This document shows positions 7,898 through 29,037 of a stretch of 64,000 nucleotides of DNA, piece after piece (the first letter of the stretch is position 1; each line of letters begins with the position of its first letter). Under the pieces are notes generated by a model. That model saw nothing but the letters and a program-made list of their open reading frames with translations. It was not told the DNA's origin and made no database searches. A program made the translations under genes and the position numbers. The DNA lies in IMG/VR virus record IMGVR_UViG_3300010399_000032. One strand, written 5' to 3'. The DNA is from a virus.

Positions 7898-7972
7898 TGG
7901 TAGGGCCCGGCAGACTCGAACTGCCGTATTGCGGATAACGTTATCTTCCGCCTAAGCTTCCTTGCTTGCCCC
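7898..7972 (-). ncRNA. Degenerate tRNA-like RNA with no readable anticodon
   Basis: Perfect T-arm GGCAG-TTCGAGT-CTGCC and ACCA end; 5-bp acceptor; GCGGA/TCCGC stem with 11-nt loop. Confidence 0.55.
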
Positions 7973-9109: not shown

Positions 9110-9183
9110 TGGCACGTCAACTCAGAGTCAAACTGAGGCCCTCGGGTTTGGAGGCCGATGTGCTATCGTAACACTTTTGACGT
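9110..9183 (-). tRNA. tRNA-Trp(CCA)
   Basis: Loop CT CCA AA, A1:U72, G73, CCA; A8 and U11:A24. Confidence 0.88.
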
Positions 9184-11178: not shown

Positions 11179-11268
11179 TGGTGGGTCCCCGAGGACTCGA
11201 ACCTCTCGTCCACCCCCTACCGGTTTCATAGACAGCGGTTTTACAGACCGCAGGCAGGAAAGGGACCC
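11179..11268 (-). tRNA. Non-canonical tRNA-Tyr(GUA) without a conventional D-arm
   Basis: Acceptor GGGTCCC/GGGACCC, 10-nt linker, GCGGT-CT GTA AA-ACCGC, 28-nt extra region, TTCGAGT loop, ACCA. Confidence 0.75.
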
Positions 11269-14155: not shown

Positions 14156-14231
14156 TGGTGCGCAAGGTGGGGGTTGAACCCACGCTACCAGCGTTTTGAG
14201 GGCTGCGACTCTACCTTTGGTCTACTTGCGC
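14156..14231 (-). tRNA. tRNA-Leu(CAA), short variable loop
   Basis: Loop CT CAA AA, A73, CCA; body nearly identical to tRNA-Leu(UAG) at 2817. Confidence 0.88.
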
Positions 14232-14473: not shown

Positions 14474-14551
14474 TGGTGCTCCCACTGGGATTCGAACCCA
14501 GACTGGGCGGGATTTAAATCCGCTGCCTCCTACCGGTTGGGCTATGAGAGC
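14474..14551 (-). tRNA. tRNA-Leu(UAA), short variable loop
   Basis: Loop TT TAA AT, A73, CCA. Confidence 0.87.
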
Positions 14552-14563
14552 AATTTCTAAAAC

Positions 14564-14640
14564 TGGTGCTCCTGGAGGAACTCGAATCCTCACTTGACAC
14601 CTCCTCAAGGTGGTTCCTCTACCTATTGGGATACAGGAGC
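14564..14640 (-). tRNA. tRNA-Leu(GAG), short variable loop
   Basis: Loop TT GAG GA, A73, CCA. Confidence 0.87.
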
Positions 14641-15359: not shown

Positions 15360-15441
15360 TGGTGATCCTGGCCGGGCTCGAACCGACATACTCCACTTAC
15401 GCTATTAACGACCGCTTAGAAGGCGGTGGCGATACAGGACC
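15360..15441 (-). tRNA. Non-canonical tRNA-Arg(UCU) without a conventional D-arm
   Basis: Same 82-nt layout as 4333-4414; ACCGC-CT TCT AA-GCGGT, ACCA. Confidence 0.75.
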
Positions 15442-16044: not shown

Positions 16045-16617
16045 TCATGGAGTTTTCCCTTCCCACTCCATATGGTGATTGACGTAAATATCTTCAACCC
16101 TTTTCCAGACATACCAGGCATGATCTTCTGTACCGGTAGTAGGACCTGAGAACCATTTGATACGATCTAGCAGCGCTATCTTTCCCCAGAACCGTCGATT
16201 ATCTCGAAATAGGTGGGTCCTGGATTTACCAAAATCAAACTTAGCAGTCAGGAGTAAGGCAACCGTTCCTGGGCACCTGGAGAGCGCCAATTCAGCAAAC
16301 TTAACCGCATCCCGGTTACCTTTACCGTAGGGCGGATTGGTTATGATCATATCGAATTTTTGTTCGATGGTCGAATTATTAGCATTCAAAAAATTATAGG
16401 TGAAATTATGCTCTCGATTATAGGTCTTGATATCGGATGATATAACCGTGGCCCCATTATCTCGCAATACATCCGCCAATAAATGATTCCCGGCAGCCGG
16501 TTCCCATACTGTTCGGCCTTGAATTTCAATATGACGGAGCAAAGCTTCGGTTGCCCAAGGCTCTGTTTGATAGAGGTCATTTTCTTTTCGGGCATAATTC
16601 GACGCCACTACGGTCAA
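16045..16617 (-). CDS. DNA amino-methyltransferase (likely N6-adenine)
   Basis: D-x-Y-x-T, WEPAAG SAM motif, ITNPPY catalytic motif. Confidence 0.85.
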   Translation of the reverse strand: MTVVASNYARKENDLYQTEPWATEALLRHIEIQGRTVWEPAAGNHLLADVLRDNGATVISSDIKTYNREHNFTYNFLNANNSTIEQKFDMIITNPPYGKGNRDAVKFAELALSRCPGTVALLLTAKFDFGKSRTHLFRDNRRFWGKIALLDRIKWFSGPTTGTEDHAWYVWKRVEDIYVNHHMEWEGKTP

Positions 16618-25302: not shown

Positions 25303-26197
25303 GGATTTGGTCCTATCTGTACTTTCTTAAGTTTTCCACATTTATCACAAACCTGGGCATATAATTTTCCCGATGGAATTTCCTTGCCGGGGGCCCATAT
25401 TTCAATTTCTTCCTTGATAGACCATTTATGTATATGCCCAAGGAATAACCATTGCAAAAGCCTAATCATTATACATCCAAATCAAAAAGGTAATCATAAA
25501 CTCCGAGAATTATCCACTTGAATGGAATAACCGAAACAGGATTACCGCTTTCGGATTTATAGACATAGGCATTCGCCTCGTCCCTGATCTTTCCCAATCT
25601 CTCCCATTTGCCATCGAAGGCGCGTTGCTTAAAGGCGGTTTCTAAAATTTGCATTTCTTTTTTCCTTTTCTTTCAGTGCAAAATTACGAATAAAAGGTGG
25701 TAATGGAACTTTGAAATAATCAAGCCAGTTCAACATTAACTGGAGTGGCCAGAAAATGACTATACTTAAATAATGGAAGGTGTTGTATTGATGATAGATA
25801 AATCGGTTCGATTCTGCAACCACCACCCCCAATGCTATCCAGAGGAAAATCCAATCAAACATGTATAAAATTTCCAACTACAATATTAACATTGGATATG
25901 GCTGCACTAGCGCGGTTCAATGGTTCCCTCGCTGATATTTGGGCCCACTGAGCCTTTCGAAGCCCCAATGTGATTTTAGTATCAACCTTATATGATACAC
26001 CCAATCTAACTTGTTTACTGAGAGGAATAATTGTGTCAAACATTTAATATTATGGCCAGATTCACGTCCAAAACCTCGCGAGGTTTTGCGTCCATTGCAA
26101 TATATTTCGACCATACTTTATGGGTATTTCCTACCACCTTTACTTTAATAGGTCGGTGATCAAACGTAATTTGTTTTGCTGTATTCATGATTTTAAT

Positions 26198-27732: not shown

Positions 27733-29037
27733 TTATTCTCCTTGCATTGCCAATCTTACATTATTTGAAAATTTTATATCTTCAAATATCCAATCATTAA
27801 CTCGATAGATGCCATTGATCTTGTTTTTGCTAATATTCATTTTCTTCCAAACATCCACAATGATCGTATCACCCATTACCGAATTGGCATTATTTTCCAA
27901 CCAATCTTCGAAAATATCATGTGGTGTCATGACAACTACCGCATCAAATTTTCCTTGAGGCATCACATTATGTACATATTTATGGTTCACCAATGGATCA
28001 TAGAGTTGTACATTCACACCATGCTTAATACAAACCTTACGGAATTTAAAAGCCAGGCTATTCCGCGTATCATCATTATTAGCCTTGAAGGCCGCTCCTA
28101 GTACTAGGATATTATTAACTGATTTATCCTGAGTTTTGATGAGATTGTAAATGTAATCCGGCATACCTTCATTGATTTCAAAGGAAGCCCTGATCATGTC
28201 CACATATGGAACATCATCTAAAAGAAACTTTCCATCCTTGTATAAGCAAGGACCACCCACATTAGCACCAGGAAGAGGTAAAGCCATGCGAGAATAATGG
28301 TTATTTGACGCTTTGATAACCTTTTCAACATCTATACCTTTCTTTTGGCCAATCATATAGAATTCATTGGCCAAGGCAAATGTTACATAACGATACATAT
28401 TTGTAATCAATTTACCAAATTCGGCTTCCTCAGGAGTCAATTTAATGCATGAGGTAATACCTCTGAAAAATTCTACAGCCTTATCAAAACTCACATCACC
28501 AAATACACCCACCAATTGTGGATGCTCCATGGCTTCATTAATACTTCTTCCTTGTACTACACGTTCCGGAGCAAAGACCAGATAGTAATCTTTTCCTTCA
28601 ACCAATCGAGTAGCCTTTTCAATTCGATCCTTTAACAATTTGGTTGTACCAGGTGAAACGGTCGATCTAAGGAGAACAAGGGTACCTAGATGTGTTTCCA
28701 GATAAGATGTAAGTTGATCAATGACCTTAATGATACCTGTAAGATTAGGATTTCCTTCCTCATCTACAGGAGTTCCAATCATTATTGCAATTGCATTTGG
28801 GCTAAAAGCCCTAACATCTTCAAAATTTGAGGTGAATTGGAGAGTATGTAGGTTAAAGCATTCTTTAAGATATATTTCACCATTTTCTTCAATAAAGGGG
28901 ATCTTTCCTTCCTTTATTGAATTGATCGCGGGTTCATTGATATCATATCCAATAACCTGGTGTGCTCGGCTTAAGCTGCATACAATAGCAAACGGTAATC
29001 CAACATGCCCGGCTGCACCAATAACTGCTACCTTCAT
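27733..29037 (-). CDS. Nucleotide-sugar 6-dehydrogenase (UDP-Glc/UDP-ManNAc family)
   Basis: GHVGLP, IGTP, RSTVSPG, PER, GGPCLYKD, AFKANNDDTRNS. Confidence 0.93.
   Translation of the reverse strand: MKVAVIGAAGHVGLPFAIVCSLSRAHQVIGYDINEPAINSIKEGKIPFIEENGEIYLKECFNLHTLQFTSNFEDVRAFSPNAIAIMIGTPVDEEGNPNLTGIIKVIDQLTSYLETHLGTLVLLRSTVSPGTTKLLKDRIEKATRLVEGKDYYLVFAPERVVQGRSINEAMEHPQLVGVFGDVSFDKAVEFFRGITSCIKLTPEEAEFGKLITNMYRYVTFALANEFYMIGQKKGIDVEKVIKASNNHYSRMALPLPGANVGGPCLYKDGKFLLDDVPYVDMIRASFEINEGMPDYIYNLIKTQDKSVNNILVLGAAFKANNDDTRNSLAFKFRKVCIKHGVNVQLYDPLVNHKYVHNVMPQGKFDAVVVMTPHDIFEDWLENNANSVMGDTIIVDVWKKMNISKNKINGIYRVNDWIFEDIKFSNNVRLAMQGE

What the first reader, a model, noticed from the sequence alone, without database searches (positions are those of the whole stretch)
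15360..15441. Second rewired tRNA-Arg(UCU) shows a compensatory change in the proposed stem
Seen: the same 82-nt layout 11 kb away. The linker changes CGG to CGC and the partner changes CCG to GCG, keeping the pair. TAAGTGGAGTATGTCGGTTCGAG is invariant, while acceptor and anticodon stems differ yet stay paired, and both anticodons specify Arg. Inference: selection on this unusual fold.
Basis: seen in the sequence. Interest (0 to 1): 0.8.

Follow-up and report, generated by a model that had tools for sequence, protein, structure and literature searches.

The report
Rewired phage arginine tRNA, second copy
This 82-base phage gene is very probably a working arginine tRNA (reading AGA) that is not a cloverleaf: it has no D hairpin, and a short covarying helix wraps around the anticodon arm instead, a design shared by about ninety distinct phage sequences, missed by gene finders and absent from the papers I could search.

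Summary
On the minus strand, 15441..15360 is an 82-nt tRNA-like gene with a 7-bp acceptor stem, normal anticodon arm (UCU), normal T arm, A73 and an encoded CCA, but only 5 nt where the D hairpin should be. Its twin (4414..4333, ACG) has the same layout. The proposed helix is CGC:GCG here and CGG:CCG in the twin.

Among 66 distinct 82-nt homologues from phage contigs the helix is paired in every sequence. It has nine haplotypes and no one-sided change. A shorter subfamily (23 sequences) behaves the same. All 89 anticodons read arginine.

In phage tRNA arrays the gene usually fills the otherwise empty Arg(UCU) slot. In Felix O1 it is the AGA tRNA that the genome paper said was missing.

My structural reading is inferred, not shown: the D/anticodon domain is internally permuted, the helix stacks on the anticodon stem, and the D-loop-like UAAKUGGAGUAU reaches the T loop.

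No expression or charging data exist.

This scan has already reported the same design: the twin in this window and at least 17 findings in other genomes. I found no paper that describes it.

The parts
15360..15441 (-). whole 82-nt tRNA-Arg(UCU) gene, non-cloverleaf layout
   Evidence: Own covariance model R1 gives 96.8 bits, against 31 bits or less for the ordinary tRNAs of the window. Rfam tRNA gives 27.6 bits with the D arm deleted.
15435..15441 (-). acceptor stem, 5' strand (RNA 1-7)
   Evidence: Pairs 7/7 with 15364-15370. In the family all 7 pairs covary and 99% of cells are paired.
15432..15434 (-). U8 A9 U10, invariant connector
   Evidence: Invariant in 66 of 66 sequences, although U8-C11 were part of the second search anchor.
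15429..15431 (-). 5' strand of the extra helix (RNA 11-13, CGC)
   Evidence: Pairs with 15400-15402. Covariation shown.
15411..15427 (-). anticodon arm (5-bp stem, loop CUUCUAA; anticodon UCU at 15418-15420)
   Evidence: Sequence. All 5 stem pairs covary in the family.
15403..15410 (-). 8-nt bulge CGUUAAUA between the anticodon stem and the 3' strand of the helix
   Evidence: The consensus C-R-U-Y-A-A-N-N holds in a scan that left this stretch free. The short subfamily has 3 nt here instead.
15400..15402 (-). 3' strand of the extra helix (RNA 40-42, GCG)
15388..15399 (-). D-loop-like single strand UAAGUGGAGUAU (candidate A14, R15, G18 G19, A20, A21, Y48)
   Evidence: G48 G49 A50 G51 U52 A53 are invariant in the 24 new sequences of a scan that did not require them. 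The assignment to D-loop positions is my inference.
15371..15387 (-). T arm (5-bp stem, loop UUCGAGC)
   Evidence: Sequence. Family stem is 99% paired and 4 of 5 pairs covary.
15360..15370 (-). acceptor 3' strand, discriminator A, encoded CCA
   Evidence: Sequence. CCA is encoded in 48 of 66 family members; the discriminator is G in 35 and A in 26.
4333..4414 (-). paralogue with the same layout, tRNA-Arg(ACG), helix CGG:CCG
   Evidence: R1 gives 88.8 bits. It is sister to the UCU copy, SH-aLRT 96.

Best explanation
The gene encodes a functional phage tRNA-Arg with anticodon UCU. It decodes AGA, and probably AGG by wobble, during infection, and its secondary structure is a three-way junction rather than the four-way cloverleaf.

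Shown:
- The acceptor, anticodon and T arms are normal.
- There is no D hairpin.
- A 3-bp helix (RNA 11-13 with 40-42) encloses the anticodon arm and is kept by compensatory change.

Inferred:
- The helix, capped by the invariant U10.U43 and continued through N14/N39, stacks on the anticodon stem. This gives the same ten layers as D stem + 26:44 + anticodon stem in an ordinary tRNA.
- The strand leaving the helix (U A A K U G G A G U A U) takes the place of the D loop. It would offer G18 G19 to the T loop and A20 to arginyl-tRNA synthetase, and then run straight into the T stem.
- In effect the D/anticodon domain is internally circularly permuted: the order is [1-9][22-47][10-21][48-76].
- The host's RNase P, ArgRS, EF-Tu and ribosome would then see a normal L shape.

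The ACG twin arose by duplication in this phage lineage and would read CGU/CGC/CGA after A34 deamination.
For: 1. Anatomy at the stated coordinates is as described.

2. Family size and spread. Two scans of viral contigs, one genome scan and one metagenome scan gave 66 distinct 82-nt members. They score 82-103 bits with model R1, against 37 or less for ordinary tRNAs.

3. Covariation of the extra helix. It is 100% paired, with nine haplotypes, no one-sided change and no mismatch. Slid controls give 16-41% paired, and 0 of 500 shuffles reach the observed score. Its mutual information ranks with pairs of the canonical stems. Well-supported sister pairs differ by double changes: the window pair, L004/L038 and L229/L213.

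4. A short-bulge subfamily of 23 distinct sequences (76-81 nt) also has the helix paired 3/3 in every member, with 7 haplotypes; 0 of 2000 shuffles reach this.

5. Arginine identity. All 89 anticodons are Arg: UCU, CCU, ACG, CCG, UCG. C35 and the A after GG (candidate A20) are invariant, and the discriminator is mostly G or A.

6. Slot filling. In 61 loci that carry the 82-nt gene, other Arg tRNAs found by ARAGORN are mostly ACG, and only 2 loci hold another UCU. In loci with the short type, co-resident canonical Arg tRNAs mostly carry other anticodons.

7. This window has 29 ordinary tRNAs and none for Arg. It uses AGA at 6.7 and AGG at 5.9 per 1000 codons.

8. Felix O1. The genome paper lists no tRNA between 25584 and 26975 and only Arg(ACG). 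It states that AGA is over-represented and that a tRNA for it 'might have been expected' (PMC3185647). The member lies at 25951-26032.

9. Plausibility. An engineered D-armless tRNA is accepted by E. coli EF-Tu and the ribosome (PMC11551756).
Against: - No expression, processing, modification or aminoacylation data exist for any member.
- The helix is only 3 bp. It adds about 0.3 kcal/mol in the nearest-neighbour model, and RNAalifold does not predict it.
- The proposed fold of this copy (-21.1 kcal/mol) is slightly above its minimum free energy fold (-22.6). For the ACG twin the gap is large (-19.9 against -31.4).
- One relative (L051:13348-13429) keeps only 2 pairs of the helix.
- The tertiary assignment (A14, R15:Y48, G18 G19, A20) rests on analogy. 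The one candidate tertiary pair I could test, 45:54, is weak: one G:C, one G.U, and one A.C in the short family.
- No 3D model could be computed.
- Several invariant positions were required by the search patterns.
Confidence: 0.75

Rival explanations
1. A tRNA-like RNA that is folded and conserved but not used for decoding. It could be a decoy or sponge for a host factor that recognises tRNA-Arg (an anticodon nuclease, a toxin or a modification enzyme), or a processing or regulatory element of the tRNA operon.
For: - The anticodon loop stays strictly Arg-like while the body is remodelled, which a decoy would also need.
- Some members lack an encoded CCA and sit inside a 16-18 bp leader/trailer stem: Bas93 and SSBI34.
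- The design is invisible to ordinary tRNA models.
Against: - The acceptor stem, discriminator and T loop are all kept as for a chargeable tRNA. CCA is encoded in 48 of 66 members.
- The gene complements rather than duplicates the Arg anticodons of the same arrays.
- It fills the AGA gap that the Felix O1 authors noted.
- Five different Arg anticodons occur, as expected of decoders.
Confidence: 0.12
2. A functional D-armless tRNA of the mitochondrial kind. The region after the anticodon arm is merely a long floppy variable loop, the 3-bp pairing has little structural role, and the molecule is not a normal L shape.
For: - Rfam aligns this copy as a tRNA with the D arm deleted and a 20-nt insertion in the variable region.
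- The energy gain of the helix is negligible.
- D-armless tRNAs can work in E. coli (PMC11551756).
Against: - Perfect covariation at 12:41 and 13:40 in two subfamilies.
- Near-invariance of 12 nt containing GG and the following A, also where the search did not require them.
- A floppy loop would not be conserved like this. Mitochondrial D-armless tRNAs have lost the G18 G19 element.
Confidence: 0.07
3. A decayed tRNA pseudogene or a chance tRNA-like sequence.
For: It scores below Rfam's gathering threshold, ARAGORN does not call it, and tRNAscan-SE did not list it in Felix O1.
Against: There are 89 distinct relatives in unrelated phage contigs, with compensatory changes in all four helices and fixed length classes.
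Confidence: 0.02
4. An ordinary cloverleaf reached through another pairing register or after RNA processing such as splicing or permutation repair.
For: For the ACG twin, Rfam can force a cloverleaf with a different anticodon arm.
Against: - That alternative needs a mismatch and G33.
- It gives the non-Arg anticodon UUA and is not available in this copy or in the family.
- The segment order cannot be restored by removing one intron.
- The gene's ends are in normal order, unlike permuted tRNA genes.
Confidence: 0.02

Closest known systems
Canonical class I bacterial and phage tRNA-Arg (Rfam RF00005), e.g. Felix O1 tRNA-Arg(ACG) at 28168-28243
   Same: The 7-bp acceptor stem, A/G73, CCA, the anticodon arm with C32 U33 ... 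A37 A38, the 5-bp T stem with its UUCGA loop, the GG-A motif and the Arg anticodons.
   Different: There is no D hairpin. One strand of a 3-bp helix lies before the anticodon arm and the other after it. The D-loop-like strand follows the anticodon arm, there is no ordinary variable loop, and the junction is three-way instead of four-way.
D-armless mitochondrial tRNAs (metazoan mt-tRNA-Ser(AGY); nematode mt tRNAs), reviewed in PMC7609411
   Same: No D hairpin, and only a few nucleotides between the acceptor and anticodon stems.
   Different: Those have lost the D-loop/T-loop contact and work with co-evolved mitochondrial factors. Here a D-loop-like GG-A element and a covarying helix are kept, and the partners would be ordinary bacterial enzymes.
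Engineered 'mini HisT' D-armless tRNA working in E. coli (Edelmann et al. 2024, PMC11551756)
   Same: It shows that bacterial EF-Tu and the ribosome tolerate a tRNA without a D arm.
   Different: It is man-made, lacks any relocated D element and is poorly stable in vivo. That paper states that all known bacterial tRNAs are cloverleaves.
Circularly permuted tRNA genes of Cyanidioschyzon merolae (from my own knowledge, not checked here)
   Same: The idea of a changed order of tRNA segments in the gene.
   Different: There the gene halves are permuted and the mature tRNA is a normal cloverleaf after circularisation and cleavage. Here the ends are normal and the permutation is internal and would persist in the mature RNA.

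Membership tests
tRNA (Rfam RF00005 cloverleaf) | Score at or above the gathering threshold of 29 bits | tested here: not met
   27.6 bits for this copy and 28.9 for the twin.
tRNA (Rfam RF00005 cloverleaf) | D stem-loop between positions 10 and 25 | tested here: not met
   Only 5 nt (UCGCC) lie between A9 and the anticodon stem, and Rfam deletes the D arm in its alignment.
tRNA (Rfam RF00005 cloverleaf) | 7-bp acceptor stem, discriminator, 5-bp anticodon stem with 7-nt loop (U33, purine 37), 5-bp T stem with UUCRA loop | tested here: met
   Sequence. These helices are 95-99% paired with many double changes in 41 homologues.
tRNA-Arg identity (E. coli-type ArgRS; identity set from my knowledge of the field and the review PMC9976931, which I did not read here) | C35 with U36 or G36 | tested here: met
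   The anticodon is UCU here. C35 is invariant, and all 89 family anticodons are Arg.
tRNA-Arg identity (E. coli-type ArgRS; identity set from my knowledge of the field and the review PMC9976931, which I did not read here) | A20 in the D loop | tested here: inconclusive
   An invariant A follows the invariant GG (RNA 48-50) in the relocated D-loop-like strand. Whether it sits where A20 sits needs a structure.
tRNA-Arg identity (E. coli-type ArgRS; identity set from my knowledge of the field and the review PMC9976931, which I did not read here) | Aminoacylation with arginine | not testable with these tools
   No charging data are available.
   96.8 bits over the full model length. The helix here is CGC:GCG, a haplotype shared by 5 members.
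D-armless mitochondrial-type tRNA | Loss of the D-loop/T-loop elbow elements (no G18 G19) | tested here: not met
   GG and the canonical T loop are both invariant.
Permuted tRNA gene (3' half upstream of 5' half) | Acceptor strands in reversed gene order, joined by an intervening sequence | tested here: not met
   The 5' and 3' acceptor strands lie at the gene's two ends in normal order, with CCA at the 3' end.

The most novel reading that the evidence does not exclude
A general, natural alternative to the cloverleaf exists in phages. Its D/anticodon domain is internally permuted, yet it still folds to an L shape and is used by unmodified bacterial ArgRS, EF-Tu and ribosomes. An unrelated Tyr version with a covarying 6-bp helix uses the same topology. 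The design persists because it makes these phage tRNAs blind spots for host or rival factors that read the normal D arm of tRNA-Arg or tRNA-Tyr, such as tRNA-targeting nucleases or toxins. The evasion part is pure speculation; nothing here tests it.
Probability: 0.2. Interest if true: 0.95.

Novelty: new variant of a known kind. Interest (0 to 1): 0.8.

Why it matters
Textbooks and recent papers state that all bacterial-type tRNAs are cloverleaves (PMC11551756). The 2020 review of natural non-canonical tRNAs lists no phage case and no such fold (PMC7609411).

If these genes are charged and used, several things follow:
- The bacterial translation apparatus naturally accepts a tRNA with a different strand topology.
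- Phage tRNA inventories and codon-usage analyses are systematically missing Arg decoders. Felix O1's 'missing' AGA tRNA is one example.
- tRNA finders need a new model.
- The scaffold could serve for orthogonal tRNA design.

The question is directly testable in cultured phages: Felixounavirus, Bas93, SSBI34 and Limnohabitans phage DC31.

Tried and rejected
- Megablast of the surrounding 4 kb against known phages found no match, so the phage itself is not a close relative of any cultured one.
- No whole genome is held for this window. The source is a 120,180-nt ENA metagenome contig whose DNA could not be fetched.
- A scan for 82-nt ACG-type relatives returned only chance matches in coding DNA. 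The only other ACG member found is a 78-nt short-bulge form, L234:2689-2766.
- The genome-collection scan gave 93 motif hits, but only 3 are real members, all on MAG contigs.
- The test of a Levitt-like pair 45:54 by a metagenome scan gave a single G.U case. Together with one G:C and one A.C this is inconclusive.
- RNAfold and RNAalifold do not recover the extra helix.
- Flanking small ORFs have no Pfam or PHROG hits; only a DNA methyltransferase at 16045-16617 was identified.
- The promoter/terminator scan gave nothing above chance.
- Nine literature searches found no description of the fold.
- The Nature 2023 paper on the REP phages, which could hold tRNA-seq of a Felixounavirus, is not in the library.

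Full report
**What is there**

Read on the minus strand, 15441..15360 is an 82-nt RNA gene. In order it has:
- a 7-bp acceptor stem (GGUCCUG with CAGGAUC, one G.U);
- U8 A9;
- the five bases UCGCC;
- a 5-bp anticodon stem with loop CUUCUAA (anticodon UCU, U33, A37);
- 23 unpaired-looking bases;
- a 5-bp T stem with loop UUCGAGC;
- discriminator A and an encoded CCA.

There is no room for a D hairpin. ARAGORN finds 29 tRNAs in the window, all on the minus strand and none for arginine, and it does not call this gene. Rfam's tRNA model scores it 27.6 bits against a threshold of 29. It aligns the gene with the D arm deleted and a 20-nt insertion in the variable region.

The twin at 4414..4333 has the same 82-nt layout with anticodon ACG. 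The two share an identical 23-mer, with none expected by chance.

The linker/partner pairing is CGC with GCG here and CGG with CCG in the twin. The copies differ at 13 of 82 positions:
- eight differences form four fully compensated pairs (two in the acceptor stem, one in the anticodon stem, one in the proposed helix);
- one turns G:C into G.U;
- two are the anticodon;
- two lie in unpaired positions.

On a tree built without the helix columns the two copies are sisters (SH-aLRT 96). The difference is therefore a real double substitution after a duplication in this lineage.

**Homologues**

A distant blastn search hit Felixounavirus phages and E. coli phage Bas93.
- In Felix O1 the element lies at 25951-26032 and is unannotated.
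- REP8 labels it 'tRNA-OTHER'.
- VpaE1_ev78 labels it as an unnamed 82-nt 'tRNA'.

I then ran two scans of viral contigs. The first anchored on the bulge and D-loop-like motifs. The second anchored only on GUAUC, the anticodon loop, C32 and the T loop, which left the middle free. With three MAG contigs and one metagenome contig, they gave 66 distinct 82-nt sequences that align without gaps.

A covariance model built from the first 41 sequences separates members (82-103 bits) cleanly from ordinary tRNAs (37 bits or less) in 830 kb of phage loci.

**Covariation**

Across the 66 sequences the helix 11-13/40-42 is paired in every one.
- 11:42 is always C:G.
- 12:41 is U:A 43, A:U 12, G:C 10, C:G 1.
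- 13:40 is C:G 51, U:A 8, G:C 7.

There are nine haplotypes, with no one-sided change and no mismatch. Partners slid by 1-3 columns give 16-41% paired. None of 500 shuffles reaches the observed covariation score. The mutual information of these two pairs ranks among the pairs of the three canonical stems.

The haplotype changes at least 8 times. It changes 21 times on a poorly resolved tree, and three well-supported sister pairs differ by a double change.

Position 14 with 39 behaves like a 26:44 pair: a mix of A.C, C:G, C.A, A:U and U.G.

In the anchor-free scan the stretch U43 A44 R45 N46 Y47 G48 G49 A50 G51 U52 A53 Y54 and the bulge C-R-U-Y-A-A stay conserved.

**A second subfamily**

Model R1 also picked up a 78-nt Arg(ACG) form with a 3-nt bulge, L234:2689-2766. 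A scan for that layout gave 23 distinct members of 76-81 nt. Their anticodons are UCU (15), CCU (4), CCG (2), UCG (1) and ACG (1). The helix is paired 3/3 in all of them, with seven haplotypes, and 0 of 2000 shuffles reach this.

The pattern fixed C35 only. Ten of the sixteen NCN anticodons are not Arg, yet every real member is Arg. ARAGORN of 61 loci of the long type and 1 of 24 of the short type.

**Function**

The gene complements the arrays it sits in.
- In loci with the 82-nt UCU gene, the other Arg tRNAs are mostly ACG, and only two loci have another UCU.
- In loci with short-type genes, the canonical Arg tRNAs mostly carry other anticodons.
- In several loci it is the only tRNA.
- This window's 41 long ORFs, all on the minus strand, use AGA 6.7 and AGG 5.9 per 1000 codons.

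The Felix O1 genome paper lists nothing between its Ile (25509-25584) and Leu (26975-) tRNAs and lists only Arg(ACG). It reports AGA as over-represented and remarks that a tRNA for it might have been expected (PMC3185647). The 82-nt gene is that decoder.

**How it probably folds (inference)**

The helix encloses the anticodon arm, so the junction is three-way. If the helix stacks on the anticodon stem, the stack is 5 bp, then N14/N39, then 3 bp, then the invariant U10.U43. That is ten layers, as in anticodon stem + 26:44 + D stem.

The strand that continues from the 3' side of the helix runs in the direction of positions 13 to 21 of a normal tRNA. Its sequence (A A K U G G A ... A) resembles an Arg D loop with A14, R15, G18 G19, A20 and A21. 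It then enters the T stem directly through a U that could stand for Y48.

Formally the segment order is [1-9][22-47][10-21][48-76]. This is an internal circular permutation of the D/anticodon domain, in which the new junctions join residues that are neighbours in the L shape.

The only tertiary pair I could test (45:54) gave one G:C, one G.U and one A.C, which decides nothing.

Energy models neither favour nor exclude the fold for this copy (-21.1 against an MFE of -22.6). They favour a competitor for the ACG twin.

**Comparison and novelty**

It works like a tRNA-Arg but fails two defining tests of the cloverleaf family: the D hairpin and the Rfam threshold. It is not of the mitochondrial D-armless type, because the GG and T-loop elements are kept. 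It is not a permuted tRNA gene, because the ends are in normal order.

[quoted passage not shown] The 2020 review of natural non-canonical tRNAs has no phage case (PMC7609411). Nine full-text searches found no description of the fold.

Within this scan the design is not new. The twin was followed up, and at least 17 findings in other genomes reached the same reading. I treated those as leads and re-derived the evidence here.

**Verdict**

This is very probably a functional, non-cloverleaf phage tRNA-Arg(UCU). The helix is shown by covariation. The permuted L-shape and the charging are inferred and need experiment.

Noticed in passing
window 11179-11268 (-); L236:513-600 (Pseudomonas phage Rembedalsseter); L238 (IMG/VR contig, minus strand near 2167-2198): A tRNA-Tyr(GUA)-like gene has the same topology but an unrelated sequence. 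It has no D hairpin, and a 6-bp helix encloses the anticodon arm. The helix reads CCUGCC/GGUAGG, CCCCAC/GUGGGG and CCCCGC/GCGGGG in three unrelated phages, so three positions covary. The T stem has an odd 49:65 pair (A.G, U.G, G.G).
   Followed up: partly
L240-L273 and L234:2689-2766; L275 (Limnohabitans phage DC31): A short-bulge subfamily of the rewired Arg tRNA (76-81 nt, 3-4 nt bulge) carries five different Arg anticodons. ARAGORN called only one of 24.
   Followed up: partly
L001:1495-1576 = Felix O1 NC_005282 25951-26032: This is an unannotated 82-nt tRNA-Arg(UCU). The RefSeq record places the start of an HNH endonuclease CDS inside it. The genome paper noted a missing AGA tRNA.
   Followed up: yes
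L002:1478-1595 (Bas93) and L274:34-133 (Salmonella phage SSBI34): Members without an encoded CCA sit inside a perfect 16-18 bp leader/trailer stem that extends the acceptor stem. An HNH endonuclease gene lies next door in Felix O1, Bas93 and SSBI34. This could be a processing signal or a trace of mobility.
   Followed up: no
L051:13348-13429: An 82-nt Arg(UCU) relative (55 bits) has a shorter bulge, a longer D-loop-like strand and only 2 pairs of the helix. It sits in a locus that also has a regular rewired Arg(CCU) and canonical Arg tRNAs.
   Followed up: no
window 2817-2892, 14156-14231, 14474-14551, 14564-14640 (-); 2604-2697 and 2698-2789 (-): All four Leu tRNAs are of class I length (76-78 nt, no long variable arm). 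The tRNAs with Ile(UAU) and Met(CAU) anticodons carry long variable arms (94 and 92 nt).
   Followed up: no
window 9113-9183 (-): Rfam finds this tRNA and ARAGORN does not. It reads as tRNA-Trp(CCA) with a C31.C39 mismatch, i.e. a 4-bp anticodon stem. A 2026 paper (PMC13092985, abstract seen) links that feature to UGA reading. Earlier notes report a release-factor gene with an in-frame UGA in this window.
   Followed up: no
window 5495-5572 (-): A tRNA with anticodon CUA (amber suppressor; ARAGORN labels it 'Pyl').
   Followed up: no
window 7898-7972 (-): A T arm, CCA and a 5-bp acceptor-like stem, but no recognisable anticodon arm (13 bits with model R1). Unexplained tRNA-like remnant or another odd tRNA.
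   Followed up: no
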